Counted from the first letter of the stretch, positions 34,421 through 49,460 are shown. The stretch is 64,000 nt of DNA from the human T2T-CHM13v2.0 reference genome, Homo sapiens (GCA_009914755.4 CP086569.2:13280001-13344000), one strand, 5' to 3'. The notes: generated from the letters alone by a model not told the origin. Program-made: numbers and translations.

Positions 34421-34562
34421 CTGAGCAGGCTGGACACCTGAGGAGTGATCAACACCACCAGCTTCCTCGTCAGCCTGTGTCTCCTCAGTGACTGCCCCAG
34501 GACCAGGGCGCCCTGGCAGTAGATGTCATCTGTGGCCAGTGTGACAAAAGCCTGATCAGTCA
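34421..34562 (-). CDS. GYG2P1: Glycogenin-2-like exon 2 (start of the glycosyltransferase family 8 domain); intact frame
   Basis: Minus strand: acceptor ttttcacag|TGACTGATCAG, donor CTGCTCAG|gtaaggct. Encodes (V)[47 protein letters not shown]. Confidence 0.8.
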
Positions 34563-34656
34563 CTGTGAAAATCAACAGAAACACCAGAGTTACACTCCTG
34601 AGGGACAGCAGGGGTGACAAGGCCATAGTCACCTCCTCTCCTCTCCCAAGATTCAT

Positions 34657-34960
34657 GGCTTGGGCCAGATGTGGTGGCTCACACCTGTCATCCCAGCACT
34701 TTGGGAGGCTGAGGTGGGTGAATTGCTTGACCTAAGAAGTTCGAGACTAGCCTGGGCCACATGGTGAAACTCTGTCTCTATGAAAAATACAAAAATTAGC
34801 TGGGCATGGTGGCATACCTGTAGTTACAGCTACTTGGGAGGCTGAGGTAGGAGGATACTTGAGCCTGGGAGTTTGAGGCTGCAGTGAGCTGTGATTGTAC
34901 CACTCTACTCCAGCCTGGGTGACAGAGTGAGACCCTGTCTCAAAAAAGAAAAAAAAAAAT
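34657..34960 (+). mobile_element. Alu SINE, sense on the + strand. Its antisense strand supplies the GYG2-like coding exon.
   Basis: ggcttgggccagatgtggtggctcacacctgtcatcccagcactttgggaggctgaggtgggtgaattgcttgacc... Confidence 0.9.
34685..34777 (-). CDS. GYG2P1: Alu-derived (exonized antisense Alu) coding exon of the GYG2-like gene, 31 codons, phase 1-1
   Basis: Minus strand: acceptor tttttcatag|AGACAGAGTTTCACC, built from the Alu A-rich linker read as a polypyrimidine tract. Donor GGGATGACAG|gtgtgagcc. Encodes (E)[30 protein letters not shown]. Confidence 0.8.
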
Positions 34961-35280
34961 CACGACTTGCAGTGAATATTCAGTATTCTAATTCACAAAC
35001 ATTCTTCCTTTCATTCTAAACAAAACAAAACACAGGAGGAGAATGAAGGAACCTTAAACATGAGACAAAGTCAACCCAATGGCTATGCCCGTTTCCTGAT
35101 GCTGCAATGCCATGGAAACTCATAGCTACTATCCCTTATTTTATGTTGTGTTTGACTCTTGAAAACTCACCCAAAGTGTTTAGATCTTAGGTGGAAACAA
35201 AAGGCAAAAAGTGGAAGTGATGACTTGATGACCTGAGTTACAGCAAAGATGTAATCCAACTCAAAGAACTGTGTTCTGGG

Positions 35281-35590
35281 CTAGATGCAGTGGCTCATGC
35301 CTGTAATCCCAGTGCTAGGGCTGAAGAAGGGGGACTAATTGAGCCCAGGAGTTTGAAACCAGCCTGGGAAGCACAGCAAGACCTCATCTCTACTGGAAAA
35401 AAAAAAATTAGCCAGGCAAGGTGGTGCACACCTATAGTCCTAGCTACTTGGGAGGCTGAGGGAGGAGGATTGCTTGAGCACAGGAGGTCAAGGCTGCAAA
35501 GAGCCATGATCACACCACTGAACTCCAGCCTGGTCAACAGAGTGAGTCCCTGTCTTCAGAAAAAGAAAAAAGAAAGAAAAGAAAAGAATC
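35281..35590 (+). mobile_element. Alu SINE, sense
   Basis: gggctagatgcagtggctcatgcctgtaatcccagtgctagggctgaagaagg... Confidence 0.9.
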
Positions 35591-36271
35591 ATGCTCCACA
35601 AAGAAGCAGCCAAACATGTTATTTAAATTCTGGACAGACCATTTCTTACAAAGACTTCAACTTCAACTCAGGGTTGTATGAGGTGGTACAGTCAACATAA
35701 GGAGAAGTGTATTGTTTCATTAGGTAGAATGTGCTCAGTTTCCTAATGCCTCAATAGGAGAGGAAGGAACTCTCACATTAGATATAATTAATGGCTTTTA
35801 AGTCTCTGTGCATAAGACTGATGTGAACTTTGGTAATGACTTTTAAACCACTCAATTCTTGGGCACCCAAGCCCCTGTTGCCAGGAGAAAGACAACAGTC
35901 AGGAGGGCAGCCAGCAACACCAACAAGTCCCACACAGTGTGCAGCCCAGTGTACTGTCTATGGAAATTAAAATGCTCAGCATGCAGGCAACCATGGCACC
36001 TTCCCCAGAAGCAGCACTCCAAGAGAAGCCAAACCACAATTCGCACTAAATATAACAAACACAAGTGTCCCAGACGTGTGGCCCAGGGCTGCCTCCTTGA
36101 CCTTTACATTGCAATGGGGTAAATTCCAAAATGCGCCTGTTACAGCTGCTCCTGTAGATTCCTCTCCCTACCCTTGCAGGAAGGAAGAACAAGAATTCCT
36201 GACATCTCCACTGGGAGTGAGTATCATAGACAGCAAACTTTACAACTTAATTCTGTAGAATAAAAGATATC

Positions 36272-46676: not shown

Positions 46677-46900
46677 TATATATATATACACATACATATA
46701 TATACACACACACACACACACGTGTGTATATATATATGTGTGTGTACATATATGTATGTATTATATATTTATATATGTGTATATATGTATATGTATATTT
46801 ATATGTGTGTATATATGTGTTTATATATATTTATATGTGTGTATATATGTGTGTGTATGTGTATATATGTATATATGCACATTTAAAAATAAATACATAA
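46677..46900. repeat. Compound (TA)n(CA)n(TG)n(TATG)n microsatellite, ~220 bp
   Basis: tatatatatatatacacatacatatatatacacacacacacacacgtgtgtatatatatatgtgtgtgtacatatatgtatg... Confidence 0.95.
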
Positions 46901-47194
46901 AATGCACTCATGAATGATCCAGTGTGGTCTAGTACAAAAAGGAGGTGTCTTAATGATTTAATGATAAAAAATAGAGCCAGCATCTTTCTTGTGGGATGAG
47001 GTTACAATCTATGTTCACATATCTAGGCCTCTTAAGTCAACCGGTATATCTGAAGTCCACAAAACCCAAGGACAGGGAGATGGGGCTCACCGGTCCTTGC
47101 GGGGCAGGCCTTTTCTGCCATTCCTGCCATTCCTGCCAGCCAGCCCTCTGCCTGCAGGAGGATTAACCTGAATTGTTATTTTTTTTAATTTCAA

Positions 47195-47484
47195 TTTTTT
47201 TAGAGACAAGGTCTCACTCTGTCACTCAGGCTGGAGTGCAGTGGTGCAATCATAGCTCACTGCCACCTTGAACTCCTGGGCTCAGGACCCTCCTACCTCA
47301 GCTTCCCTAGTAGCTGGGACTACAGGCACGTGCCGCAATGCCCAGCTGATTTTTAAATTATTTTCCTACAGATATGGTCTCCCTATGTTGCCCAGGATGG
47401 TCTCAAAGTCCTGGCCTCAAGCAGTCCTCCCGTCTCAGCTTCCCAAAGGGCTGGGATTACAGGCCTGAGCCACCAAGCCCGGCC
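47195..47484 (-). mobile_element. Alu SINE, antisense
   Basis: tttttttagagacaaggtctcactctgtcactcaggctggagtgcagtggtgc... Confidence 0.9.
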
Positions 47485-47940
47485 ATCCCTTTATCTGTAC
47501 TGGAAACAGAAATTAAACCCACGATCTGAACTTTAAGAACTCAAGGCAGCGTCTTCCCAGAGCTTTAGTTAGGGCCGTTTCAGAACAGACTTCTTCCCAT
47601 GGGCCTTCCAGGCAGTGACAGGCTCAGACACTGCTATTGGGAATAGCCAATGCTATTCCGAAGAAACAAGCCCATTGAGTTTCAGGACTATATTTTACAA
47701 AAGGAAACTGGTGAGAACCCAAGGTCCCCTTCACTTGCTGTAAATCACCCCCTCCCAGCAGCTGAGGCTGGTATCTCCATTCCCTCCAGCCCCAGAGAGA
47801 CCTGGGCGAGGGAGTGAGGGGGAGACTTGGGGTTTGGGGCAATCCTGCGGTCAAAGTGGGGTTCTCCCCAGTGCAGACCAATCTCTCACCCATGCCAGTA
47901 GGAACAGGCAGGCTGAACTGAAGGAGCTTGAGCTACTCAC

Positions 47941-47947
47941 CCGACAT
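47941..47947 (-). CDS. GYG2P1: GYG2-like first coding exon: ATG TCG G followed by GTGAGT donor. The 5'UTR extends upstream into the CpG island.
   Basis: Minus strand reads ccacggaccATGTCGG|gtgagtagctc (A at -3). Phase 1, so G joins AG of the Alu exon to give MSE... Confidence 0.65.
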
Positions 47948-49460
47948 GGTCCGTGGCGCCGCACGCAGTGGGCGCGGACCCGCAGACCTGCGCCCAGGCG
48001 CAGTGGGTGGAAATAAATCCTCGTCACGAACCCGCAGAACAGAGGCGCCGTCTTTGGGAAGCCGCGTGGATTTCCAGGCCTGGGGGCGACAGCGTGGCTG
48101 CCTCGACACCCTCGGCTGCAGGCCTCGCCGGTGTCACCCCCGGCCTCCTACTCACTCCATGTCACCTGCGCCCCATGGGGCCCCGGCCTCCCCCGACGCC
48201 CCTGAGACCCCCACGCCCCGCAATTCCTCCTCGGCGCTCTAGGTCAGCCTCGTGCCCTCTGGCCAGGGGCCCCTTGACCCCCTGTCCTCCCCACAGTCAC
48301 CTGCGACCCCGCTGATTCTTAATACCCATGCGCCCAGCAACGACACCGCACGCGGAACACCGCCCGACCTCAGCGGTGTCAGCAGCTGCCCCGTCGCCCA
48401 GCGCACTTGCTTGGAGTACTGGTACATCCTCTTCCCCCAACCCAGCTGCCCCCCGACCCGGTCACCCCTCTCCACTCCCTGGCCCACCCCTGCGCTCCCG
48501 GACCCCAGTATCTGCACCTCCTCCGAGCTTGAGCTGCCTCTGCCCGTGTCCCCAGGCCAGGCGCCCCCTCCCCCGTCACTCCAGTGCCGCCCCACCCCAG
48601 CCCACTCCTGCGCCTCTCGCCGCCCCTCCTCCCCGTCCCGGCCTTCTGCCCATCCTCTCCAAGCGCCCCCGAATCCCCTCCACGCCCTGCACCTCTCCCT
48701 CCCCGCGCGCTCCCGCAGCCTCTGCCTTGGGCCTGCGCCTCCCTCCCCAAGCCTCTCAGCTCTACGTCCCCGCCCCCGTCTGTCCTCCATACTGAGGCAG
48801 CCTCCGTCTCCCCGTGCCCACTGCGCCTGGACCACCTGTACTCCTCAGCACTCGGCGCCTCGGCTCGGCCCACCCACCCGCAAGCGCCGCTAGCCTATCC
48901 CTGCGCCCCGCACCCCTCCCCGCCTTTGCTTTTGGGCAACCTCTCTCTGACCTCCAGCTCCCAGCGCCTCTCGCCCCACCTCTGCACTCCAAGGCCGGCG
49001 CCCCTCCCCCAGCCCCCAGCCTCTGCCTCTGGGTTCCGCCCGCGCCCCGCTGTACGCCACCCACCCTCGAGACCTCCTAGGCGTTCGGGCAGCCTCAGCG
49101 CCCCCCGGCCCCCAGCCGCGCCCAGGCCTCCTCCACTGCATACGATCCCCTGCACCCCGCTGCAGCCCCCGCACCTCTTCCGGCGCCCTGGCTGCCTCTG
49201 CCCAAAGCCGGCGCTGGGGGCCCGGAGGGCAGCGATTGGCCTCTGTCCTGAAGCCCGGCCCCGCCTCCGCCCAGCCCTGGTAGGCGCGGGTCAGCTCCTC
49301 AGCCCTGCAGCCCCTGCCCGCAAGCCCGCGCGCCTCCTGGTGTCCAGCCCCAGCTACCAAGGAGAGAGACCCAGGAACCGCCAGTGGCTGCGCTCCACGC
49401 CGGCGCCCAGCCCCTCGCCCACCGCGGCCCCCTTGGCAGTTGGCGGTTTCTAGGTTTGGA
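47948..49460 (-). promoter_or_regulatory. CpG island (~1.5 kb, very high GC, abundant CpG), presumptive promoter/5'UTR of the GYG2-like gene
   Basis: Dense CG dinucleotides (gcgccgcacgcagtgggcgcggacccgcagacctgcgcc...cgcgcgcctcctgg). Strong C-over-G skew on the + strand. Lies immediately upstream, in minus-strand terms, of the ATG exon. Confidence 0.75.

What the first reader, a model, noticed from the sequence alone, without database searches (positions are those of the whole stretch)
34421..49460. Convergent GYG2-like 5' end with an intact exon 1, Alu exon and exon 2 but no detectable body exons: differential decay of neighbouring genes
On the minus strand a CpG island leads into ATG TCG G|gtgagt. 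About 13 kb downstream (minus-strand sense) lie a 31-codon exon and then, 122 bp further, an exon encoding [48 protein letters not shown]. Together these reproduce the canonical GYG2 N-terminus. All splice sites and frames are intact, in contrast to the ARSD-like copy only 20 kb away.

The gene is convergent with the ARSD-like copy, as GYG2(+)/ARSD(-) are on Xp22.33. Here the promoter-to-ARSD-stop distance is ~33 kb, versus roughly 75 kb on X (from memory). I also could not find further glycogenin exons between 15.4 and 34.4 kb. This implies large deletions of the GYG2 body. A pseudogene that keeps a pristine CpG-island promoter and first exons may still be transcribed, for example as a lncRNA.
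Basis: partly seen in the sequence, partly recalled or inferred. Interest (0 to 1): 0.6.

Follow-up and report, generated by a model that had tools for sequence, protein, structure and literature searches.

The report
Known truncated Y pseudogene GYG2P1
This is the already catalogued human Y-chromosome relic of the glycogenin-2 gene (GYG2P1): it keeps its promoter and first exons, an old 36-kb deletion removed the rest, and the intact look of what remains is what chance predicts.

Summary
On the minus strand a 1.77-kb CpG island leads into ATGTCGG|gtgagt (47947-47941). A 93-nt antisense-Alu exon follows at 34777-34685, then a 122-nt intron, then a 143-nt exon at 34562-34420. Together they read as the first 81 residues of glycogenin-2. 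No later GYG2 exon exists anywhere in the window.

Published human Y-specific PCR assays give exactly the published amplicon sizes here, so this is human GYG2P1, next to ARSDP1. GYG2P1 is already described as a "short, 3' truncated" non-coding RNA (NR_033667) and is repeatedly reported as male-expressed.

Alignment to chimpanzee X shows one complex lesion. X positions 27.3-63.7 kb, holding exons 3 to last, are missing. An 0.8-kb inverted remnant and 2 kb of L1/(GATA)n filler sit at the junction. Gorilla Y shares the whole arrangement.

"Differential decay" is not supported. Neutral simulation keeps 243 nt plus splice sites intact 12-33% of the time. The ARSD-like stop density predicts 0.7 lesions here. 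Gorilla Y has a frameshift in exon 2. The CpG island is still an island, though it has lost 25% of ancestral CpGs against 9% on chimpanzee X.

Verdict: ordinary and already known.

The parts
47831..49600 (-). CpG-island promoter of the GYG2 remnant. It holds GC boxes at about 49273-49255 and a CCAAT box at 49239-49235. The inferred RefSeq 5' end is at about 49215.
   Evidence: 1770 bp, GC 0.70, 134 CpG, o/e 0.68. The orthologous chimp X island has 157-162 CpG and o/e 0.74-0.76; 36 of 144 ancestral CpGs are lost on this Y; human-gorilla Y divergence is 2.3% here against 2.7% overall. The 5' end is inferred from the hg19 span in PMC4184603 plus the offset found.
47941..47947 (-). Start codon and first 7 coding nt (ATGTCGG) of GYG2 exon 1, followed by donor gtgagt.
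   Evidence: The sequence is identical in gorilla Y, chimp X, macaque X and Cebus X.
34778..47940 (-). Former GYG2 intron 1 (13,163 nt), collinear with X intron 1.
   Evidence: L002 11040-24322 aligns to window 46385-33266, with substitution divergence 5.6%. The human Y-specific amplicons of 738 bp (47038-46301) and 476 bp (36749-36274) lie here (PMC9875541).
34685..34777 (-). Exonized antisense-Alu coding exon (31 codons). The same Alu has an alternative upstream donor, CAG|gtatgc, at 34818.
   Evidence: It has 7 X-Y differences in 93 nt, a neutral rate. The 34818 donor joined to the 34562 acceptor reproduces the 256-nt spacing of the published Illumina GYG2P1 junction probe (PMC4121369).
34420..34562 (-). 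GYG2 exon 2 (residues 33-81, the start of the GT8 domain). The donor AGG|gtaagg gives an immediate TAA stop if unspliced.
   Evidence: It has 3 differences from chimp X. Two are on the Y lineage: N45D, shared with gorilla Y, and one synonymous change. Gorilla Y has a GTCC insertion here.
33744..33783 (-). Cluster of three AATAAA signals in former intron 2, the probable polyadenylation site of the truncated transcript.
   Evidence: hexamers start at 33783, 33766 and 33749 and are conserved in chimp and macaque X. The published 3' end, hg19 14,517,915 (PMC4184603), maps to window 33741 with the offset. That is 20 nt past the middle hexamer.
32024..34419 (-). Surviving 5' part of former intron 2, up to the proximal breakpoint.
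   Evidence: the stretch is X-homologous up to L002 26384, and the junction lies at window 32023/32024.
31217..32023 (+). 0.8-kb remnant of intron 2, inverted relative to its flanks.
   Evidence: it aligns to L002 26473-27283 in the opposite orientation to all other blocks. Macaque X has the chimp X orientation, so the inversion is Y-derived.
29192..31216 (.). Y-specific filler at the deletion junction. It comprises (GATA)n at 31085-31195, a 5'-truncated L1 3' end at 29920-31080 (sense on the minus strand), an older L1 piece at about 29490-29870, and about 300 bp unassigned.
   Evidence: sequence read directly; only repeat-level similarity (66-78%) to the X loci. Present in gorilla Y.
22957..29191 (-). 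Sequence orthologous to the X region starting 3.2 kb downstream of the GYG2 gene end. This is the distal side of the deletion.
   Evidence: L002 63718-69924, substitution divergence 5.2%. The chimp gene ends at L002 60467.
1290..14949 (+). Convergent ARSD-like pseudogene (ARSDP1), exons 5-10. Exons 1-4 lie off the left end of the window.
   Evidence: 72-94% identity, with in-frame stops in exons 6, 8, 9 and 10 and a 3-codon deletion in exon 5; exon 5 is 88% identical to arylsulfatase D of Piliocolobus; the human ARSDP marker primers match exactly at 12091-12111 and 12638-12663.

Best explanation
The region is the human Y-linked gametologue of X-linked GYG2, the annotated unprocessed pseudogene GYG2P1 (non-coding RNA NR_033667). 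It sits beside ARSDP1 in the youngest X-Y stratum.

After X-Y recombination stopped, one complex rearrangement on the Y removed the X-equivalent of 36.4 kb. That segment ran from mid-intron 2 to 3.2 kb past the gene end and held exons 3 to last, so it took the whole catalytic core, the 3' UTR and the poly(A) site. The event left an 0.8-kb inverted scrap of intron 2, and 2 kb of L1/(GATA)n filler now lies at the junction. It predates the human-gorilla split.

What survives is the CpG-island promoter, exon 1, intron 1, the Alu exon, exon 2 and 2.4 kb of intron 2. The island has stayed CpG-rich, which implies it stayed unmethylated in the male germline, and it still fires.

The following steps are inferred. 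Exon 2's donor has no downstream partner, so transcripts run into former intron 2. They end at a pre-existing AATAAA cluster about 650 nt downstream, or read through much further in some cell types. The RNA can encode at most an 81-residue stub lacking the GT8 active site.

The clean reading frame and splice sites are leftover similarity at about 5-6% X-Y divergence, not evidence of selection.
For: Identity as human Y:
- Published human primers give 738-bp and 476-bp products in the window, exactly the published Y sizes. Gorilla Y gives 747 and 488 bp, and chimp X gives 238 and 566 bp.
- The ARSDP marker primers match exactly.
- Gorilla chrY is collinear with window 55767-24210, with 2.7% substitutions.

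Homology and deletion:
- Blocks collinear with chimp X GYG2 cover the upstream region, promoter, intron 1, both exons and part of intron 2. The alignment then jumps from L002 27283 to 63718.
- Chimp exons 3 to last lie at L002 33043 to about 60467, inside the missing segment.
- No tblastn hit for residues 82-501.
- The junctions are shared with gorilla Y in a single HSP of 96.9% identity.
- Macaque and Cebus X have the full gene and the uninverted orientation.

No coding function:
- Pfam finds no family in the 81-aa product. Chimp GYG2 has Glyco_transf_8 at residues 40-255.

Promoter state:
-.

Transcription and truncation already reported:
- PMC4184603 calls it a 'short, 3' truncated version... 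non-coding RNA', chrY:14,517,915-14,533,389.
- PMC6188473 reports male-specific expression in cerebellar basket cells extending about 300 kb downstream.
- PMC12032161, PMC4754746, PMC11101176 and PMC5993825 also report expression.

3' end:
- A probe junction (PMC4121369) fixes an offset that puts the published gene end 20 nt after an AATAAA.
Against: - I could not align the window to the human reference or its annotation directly. The assignment rests on amplicon sizes, primer matches and literature coordinates.
- The offset linking window to hg19 was chosen among 16 GT/AG pairs with the right spacing. It is favoured because it uses the exact exon-2 acceptor and lands the gene end on a poly(A) signal.
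- Use of the intronic AATAAA cluster, and the link between loss of the 3' end and the reported 300-kb read-through, are inferences.
- Exon 2 is somewhat less diverged than its surroundings: 2.1% against 5.6% X-Y, and 0.7% against 2.7% human-gorilla. With 143 nt this is not significant, but weak constraint cannot be excluded.
- Whether inversion and deletion were one event or two, and whether the L1 caused the lesion or arrived later, is unresolved.
Confidence: 0.9

Rival explanations
1. The retained promoter and first exons are kept by selection because the RNA has a male-specific function. It could act as a lncRNA, for example in cerebellar basket cells or adipose tissue.
For: - The CpG island still meets island criteria after the whole period of X-Y divergence. 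It evolves no faster than background between human and gorilla Y despite 134 CpGs.
- Expression is reproducible and cell-type-specific (PMC6188473, PMC12032161, PMC4754746).
- Expression correlates with obesity traits (PMC5993825).
Against: - Island and exon divergence between human and gorilla Y (2.3% and about 1.3%) is not significantly below the 2.7% background.
- The Y-branch to X-branch substitution ratio is higher in the promoter block (117:31) than in intron 1 (281:150).
- 25% of ancestral CpGs are lost.
- An unmethylated island persists passively as long as it is bound and transcribed in the germline.
- The literature reports are correlative.
Confidence: 0.08
2. The intact 81-codon ORF is translated into a small N-terminal glycogenin-2 fragment with some activity, for example as a dominant-negative or a binding peptide.
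For: - The ATG, frame and all five splice sites are intact.
- The NCBI annotation of gorilla Y calls a 108-aa 'uncharacterized protein' from the orthologous locus.
Against: - No Pfam domain is detectable. Only residues 40-81 of the 40-255 GT8 domain remain. The FLDAD (DxD) segment and the self-glucosylated tyrosine lie in deleted exons (for the sequence; their roles are from established knowledge of glycogenins).
- The gorilla frame is broken by a 4-bp insertion, so its 108-aa product shares only 46 residues with GYG2.
- The published probe junction implies the human transcript uses a different Alu-derived donor, at 34818.
- Intactness is expected by chance.
Confidence: 0.02
3. The missing exons are an artefact. 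The window could be a mis-assembled or collapsed copy of X-linked GYG2, or the exons could be present but too diverged to detect.
For: One public assembly does carry a suspicious copy. The M. thibetana 'chrY' segment is 100% identical to chrX over 70.7 kb around GYG2.
Against: - The same junctions occur in an independent telomere-to-telomere gorilla Y assembly.
- Both sides of the gap are X-homologous at 91-95% identity, so exons at that divergence would be found easily.
- The literature independently calls GYG2P1 3'-truncated and 15.5 kb long (PMC4184603).
Confidence: 0.01

Closest known systems
Human GYG2P1 (glycogenin 2 pseudogene 1, NR_033667), Yq11.21, hg19 chrY:14,517,915-14,533,389
   Same: It appears to be this locus. 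The Y-specific amplicon sizes match exactly. The strand and the convergent ARSDP neighbour agree. It is described as 'short, 3' truncated... non-coding RNA' (PMC4184603). The 15.5-kb published span fits the island-to-AATAAA distance here (49215 to 33741).
   Different: Nothing of substance. This report adds the anatomy of the lesion: a 36.4-kb loss, an 0.8-kb inverted remnant, L1/(GATA)n filler, and sharing with gorilla. It also adds a neutral-expectation test. I did not find these in the papers searched.
X-linked GYG2 (glycogenin-2, GT8 self-glucosylating primer of glycogen synthesis)
   Same: Orthologous promoter island, ATG exon, Alu-derived exon and exon 2. These show 98% and 94% amino-acid identity.
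   Different: It lacks exons 3 to last, and therefore 420 of 501 codons, the catalytic domain, the C-terminus and the native poly(A) site.
ARSDP1 and other stratum-5 X-degenerate pseudogenes (ARSLP1, ANOS2P, STSP1, etc.)
   Same: Unprocessed Y copies of Xp22.3 genes that decay after recombination arrest. The region is known for X-Y gene conversion (PMC4104316).
   Different: ARSDP1 in this window keeps its exon series and decays by point lesions (4 stops). GYG2P1 was disabled by one structural event.
Promoter-retaining truncated pseudogenes that use intronic polyadenylation
   Same: A live CpG-island promoter drives a transcript that ends at a cryptic intronic AATAAA once downstream splice partners are gone.
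   Different: Use of this site is inferred from coordinates, not from RNA data seen here.

Membership tests
Functional glycogenin (GT8, Pfam PF01501) | Complete Glyco_transf_8 catalytic domain | tested here: not met
   no Pfam hit for the 81-aa product. Chimp GYG2 matches PF01501 at residues 40-255. Only residues 40-81 are encoded here.
Functional glycogenin (GT8, Pfam PF01501) | DxD metal/UDP-glucose motif and self-glucosylated tyrosine | tested here: not met
   No tblastn match for residues 82-501. The ...FLDADTL... segment lies in exons inside the deleted X interval. The functional role of these residues comes from established knowledge of glycogenins, not from a test here.
Unprocessed X-degenerate Y pseudogene (GYG2P1) | Collinear homology to the X gene including promoter and introns, so not a retrocopy | tested here: met
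   about 27 kb in five blocks collinear with chimp X (four in the same orientation, one 0.8-kb piece inverted), at 5-9% substitution divergence, with introns included.
Unprocessed X-degenerate Y pseudogene (GYG2P1) | Location on the male-specific Y | tested here: met
   Collinear with gorilla chrY CM054581.2. Human Y-specific amplicon sizes of 738 and 476 bp are reproduced exactly.
Unprocessed X-degenerate Y pseudogene (GYG2P1) | Loss of coding capacity | tested here: met
   The 36.4-kb X-equivalent holding exons 3 to last is absent.
Unprocessed X-degenerate Y pseudogene (GYG2P1) | Identity with the annotated record NR_033667 / reference coordinates | not testable with these tools
   No human reference or annotation is available. 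The indirect fit comes from the probe junction and the published span (PMC4121369, PMC4184603).
CpG-island promoter | Length over 500 bp, GC at least 0.55, CpG observed/expected at least 0.65 | tested here: met
   1770 bp, GC 0.70, o/e 0.68.
CpG-island promoter | Unmethylated and transcriptionally active | not testable with these tools
   Inferred from CpG retention. Expression is reported in PMC6188473, PMC12032161 and PMC4754746. No methylation or CAGE data were available here.
Exonized antisense Alu | Exon lies wholly inside an Alu in antisense orientation and uses Alu-derived splice sites | tested here: met
   One search shows the poly-T, Alu body and exon. In one search, the exon's peptide matches dozens of other Alu copies in the window at 45-80% identity.

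The most novel reading that the evidence does not exclude
The surviving promoter-plus-first-exons unit is not just a relic but a selectively kept, male-specific non-coding transcription unit. Its loss of a terminator creates long read-through transcription over neighbouring Y sequence in particular neurons.

Separately, the mosaic phylogeny suggests that X-Y exchange across this locus continued after apes split from Old World monkeys. In it, the Y groups with ape X in 44.9-38.9 kb and 24.7-23.2 kb, but falls outside ape plus macaque X around the promoter.
Probability: 0.07. Interest if true: 0.4.

Novelty: already known. Interest (0 to 1): 0.1.

Why it matters
It matters little beyond bookkeeping. 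The locus is an annotated, repeatedly detected male-specific transcript, and it is already used as a sexing marker.

The useful outcome is negative. The intact-looking exons and splice sites should not be read as conservation. Reads assigned to GYG2P1 come from a 3'-truncated gene whose transcripts probably end in former intron 2 or run on downstream.

The breakpoint anatomy and its sharing with gorilla give a minimum age for the lesion. They also give a clean example of a Y gene killed by one structural event while its neighbour decays by point mutations.

Tried and rejected
- The first protein search, with the 81-aa peptide, returned only short fragments. I therefore typed human GYG2 from memory as a lead. 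It proved 95% identical over its full length to the database cluster representative. I repeated the key tblastn with the database chimp protein P0219.
- Look-up of chimp isoform P0110 failed because it is not the longest product. P0219 worked.
- The ARSD search also returned only fragments.
- I hoped the Macaca thibetana 'chrY' GYG2 copy would date the deletion. It is 100% identical to the chrX copy over 70,693 bp. It is therefore pseudoautosomal-like or an assembly duplicate and is uninformative.
- A Pfam scan of the L1 filler failed on stop codons. I identified the L1 by reading its characteristic 3'-end sequence instead.
- Rfam found nothing in the window.
- I asked whether the filler is a diverged remnant of the deleted segment. 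I rejected this because it has only repeat-level similarity to three X loci.
- I asked whether exon 2's low divergence shows constraint. I rejected this as not significant, and the gorilla frameshift argues against it.

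
Full report
**Observation**

Reading the minus strand confirms every detail of the finding.
- A GC-rich stretch ends in ATGTCGG at 47947-47941, followed by gtgagt.
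- After 13,163 nt there is a 93-nt exon at 34777-34685, inside an antisense Alu. Its acceptor is tttttcatag and its donor is CAG|gtgtgag.
- A 122-nt intron follows, then a 143-nt exon at 34562-34420 with acceptor ttttcacag and donor AGG|gtaagg.
- Joined, these encode 81 residues: MSETEFHH...[48 protein letters not shown].

tblastn with glycogenin-2 gives 94% identity for the Alu exon and 98% for exon 2 (E 1e-34). Nothing matches residues 82-501 anywhere in the 64 kb. The many other hits to residues 1-33 are simply other Alu copies.

It proved 95% identical over its full length to the database cluster representative. Repeating the search with the database chimpanzee protein P0219 gave the same result.

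The island is real: 47831-49600, 1770 bp, GC 0.70, 134 CpG, observed/expected 0.68.

**What and where it is**

A 108-aa 'uncharacterized protein' of gorilla (P0003) led to gorilla chrY CM054581.2. That sequence is collinear with window 55767-24210, with 2.7% substitutions.

Published human sexing primers for GYG2/GYG2P1 match the window exactly. They give products of 738 bp (47038-46301) and 476 bp (36749-36274), precisely the published Y sizes. Gorilla Y gives 747 and 488 bp, and chimpanzee X gives 238 and 566 bp (PMC9875541).

Primers for a human Y haplogroup marker in ARSDP also match exactly, at 12091-12111 and 12638-12663 (PMC2258157).

The window is therefore human Y. The feature is GYG2P1, with ARSDP1 convergent on the + strand.

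The literature already describes GYG2P1 as 'a short, 3' truncated version... non-coding RNA' at chrY:14,517,915-14,533,389 (PMC4184603). It also reports GYG2P1 as a consistently male-expressed transcript:
- in fetal and adult brain (PMC12032161, PMC4754746);
- in embryonic stem cells (PMC11101176);
- in adipose tissue (PMC5993825);
- in cerebellar basket-cell nuclei, where transcription extends about 300 kb downstream (PMC6188473).

**Anatomy of the lesion**

The chimpanzee X GYG2 locus (L002; gene at 10001-60467) aligns to the window in blocks.

| Chimp X (L002) | Window | Substitution divergence | Content |
|---|---|---|---|
| 1810-5147 | 55451-52132 | 7.5% | upstream |
| 7047-11047 | 50869-46879 | 8.6% | island and exon 1 |
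| 11040-24322 | 46385-33266 | 5.6% | intron 1, Alu exon, exon 2 |
| 25087-26384 | 33318-32011 | 8.8% | intron 2 |
| 26473-27283 | 31217-32023 | not computed (88.5% BLAST identity, gaps included) | intron 2, inverted |
| 63718-69924 | 29191-22957 | 5.2% | downstream of gene |

Nothing aligns until L002 63718, which is 3.2 kb past the gene end. Chimpanzee exons 3 to last lie at L002 33043 to about 60467, all inside the missing 36.4 kb.

The junctions read directly are at 32023/32024, at about 31217, and at 29191/29192.

Between the last two junctions lie:
- a (GATA)n run at 31085-31195;
- a 5'-truncated L1 3' end at 29920-31080;
- an older L1 fragment;
- about 300 bp unassigned.

This material has only repeat-level similarity to the X loci of three species, so it is not a remnant of the lost segment.

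Macaque and Cebus X carry the complete gene and the uninverted orientation, so both changes happened on the Y. Gorilla Y crosses all junctions in one 96.9% alignment, so the event predates the human-gorilla split.

The order 'X 26384 | X 27283→26473 | filler | X 63718' is what an inversion of about 26.4-63.7 kb would leave if most of the inverted segment were then deleted. A single complex event is equally possible. This step is inference.

**Is the intactness meaningful?**

No.
- Exon 2 differs from chimpanzee X at 3 of 143 sites, but 16% of intronic 143-nt windows in the same block differ at 3 or fewer. The Alu exon differs at 7 of 93, a neutral rate.
- With outgroups, only two exon-2 changes fall on this Y lineage: N45D, shared with gorilla Y, and one synonymous change.
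- Gorilla Y carries a 4-bp GTCC insertion in exon 2 that breaks the frame. This explains its odd 108-aa annotation.
- A neutral simulation used the measured Y-branch substitution rate and indel rate. It keeps the ATG, the open frame and five splice dinucleotides in 12-33% of runs.
- The ARSD-like copy has in-frame stops in exons 6, 8, 9 and 10 over 1350 aligned nt. That density predicts 0.72 lesions in 243 nt, so the probability of none is 0.49.
- Between human and gorilla Y, the island (2.3%) and the two exons (3 substitutions and 1 indel in 236 nt) do not differ significantly from the 2.7% background.

The two neighbours do not decay at different rates. One has a 5.5-fold larger coding target in view, and the other was disabled structurally.

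**Promoter**

The Y island remains an island but is not pristine. Of 144 CpGs inferred to be ancestral, 36 are lost here and 33 in gorilla Y, against 13 on chimpanzee X. The Y-to-X unique-substitution ratio is 117:31 in the promoter block, against 281:150 in intron 1.

Even so, an observed/expected ratio of 0.68 persists after the whole X-Y divergence. Human-gorilla divergence in the island is no higher than background despite 134 CpGs. Both argue that the island has stayed unmethylated in the male germline. This is an inference, and it agrees with the reported expression.

**How the transcript probably ends**

A published Illumina probe for GYG2P1 spans a junction at hg19 14,518,992 | 14,518,736 (PMC4121369). 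Sixteen GT...AG pairs in the window have that spacing. One joins a donor at 34818 (CAG|gtatgc, in the same Alu) to the exact exon-2 acceptor at 34562.

The resulting offset places the published gene start at window 49215. That is inside the island, about 20 nt downstream of a CCAAT box and 40-55 nt downstream of GC boxes. It places the published gene end at 33741, 20 nt past the middle of three AATAAA hexamers at 33783, 33766 and 33749.

These hexamers are conserved in X intron 2, so the site pre-existed. The deletion left exon 2's donor without a downstream partner, so an intronic poly(A) site would become the default end. Loss of the native terminator may also relate to the long read-through seen in basket cells. 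All of this is inferred.

If exon 2's donor is unused, the frame stops at once (AGG TAA). The largest conceivable product is therefore the 81-residue stub. It has no detectable Pfam domain, whereas chimpanzee GYG2 carries Glyco_transf_8 at residues 40-255.

**Comparison with the known, and verdict**

This is GYG2P1, an unprocessed X-degenerate pseudogene of stratum 5, a region already known for X-Y gene conversion (PMC4104316). It is not a functional glycogenin, because the defining domain and motifs were tested and are absent.

It is wrong only in treating the clean exons as remarkable. Nothing here is new in kind.

The breakpoint anatomy, the sharing with gorilla and the neutral-expectation test are small additions. 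Interest is low.

Noticed in passing
window 50800-23200 (with L002, L004, L005): The X-Y phylogeny is a mosaic. Over 16,190 four-way aligned sites, 166 group this Y with chimp X, 92 group chimp X with macaque X, and 44 group the Y with macaque X. Support is spatially clustered. At 44.9-38.9 kb (27:10, 20:4, 16:6, 10:2) and 24.7-23.2 kb (25:3) the Y sits with ape X, and Y-chimp X distance is below chimp X-macaque X distance. At 50.8-44.9 kb (promoter side) the Y falls outside. This suggests X-Y exchange after the ape/Old World monkey split, in line with known stratum-5 gene conversion (PMC4104316).
   Followed up: partly
L003 and L004 (Macaca thibetana CM045109.1 13.29-13.36 Mb and CM045108.1 2.29-2.36 Mb): The assembly's 'chrY' carries a full GYG2 locus that is 100% identical over 70,693 bp to the chrX copy. 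This is either a pseudoautosomal placement or a duplicated contig. It cannot be used as a Y gametologue.
   Followed up: partly
L001 23430-23753 (gorilla chrY); window 34440 equivalent: Gorilla Y has a 4-bp GTCC duplication in GYG2 exon 2. NCBI nevertheless annotates a 108-aa 'uncharacterized protein' that skips the Alu exon and reads through the exon-2 donor into the intron.
   Followed up: yes
window 34818 and 34941-34818: The same antisense Alu that supplies the canonical GYG2 Alu exon has a second donor, CAG|gtatgc, at 34818. Joined to the exon-2 acceptor, it fits the published GYG2P1 probe junction. The Y transcript may therefore use a different Alu-derived exon from the X gene's coding one.
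   Followed up: partly
window 1290-14949 (+): ARSD-like exons 5-10 carry in-frame stops in exons 6, 8, 9 and 10 and a 3-codon deletion in exon 5. Exons 1-4 lie beyond the window's left end. The (GGAT)n tract with the human haplogroup-Q marker rs41352448 lies within 12091-12663.
   Followed up: partly
window 48000-49400: There is a strong strand asymmetry across the island: GC skew -0.385 on the + strand, so the transcribed minus strand is G-rich for about 1.4 kb. I did not examine whether this reflects a long G-rich 5' exon or R-loop-prone sequence.
   Followed up: no
window 46385-46879 and 49964-50880: An (AT)n/(TATG)-type array at 46674-46877 sits in a gap of the X-Y alignment. It explains the 738-bp Y product against the published 236-bp human X product (238 bp on chimp X). 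A TGAA-rich minisatellite with periods of 4, 44 and 84 nt lies just upstream of the island.
   Followed up: no
window 36000-37000: This stretch is AT-rich with an extreme C-over-G skew (-0.60) on the + strand. It coincides with the GATA/GGAT-type repeat in which the 476-bp Y-specific amplicon lies.
   Followed up: no
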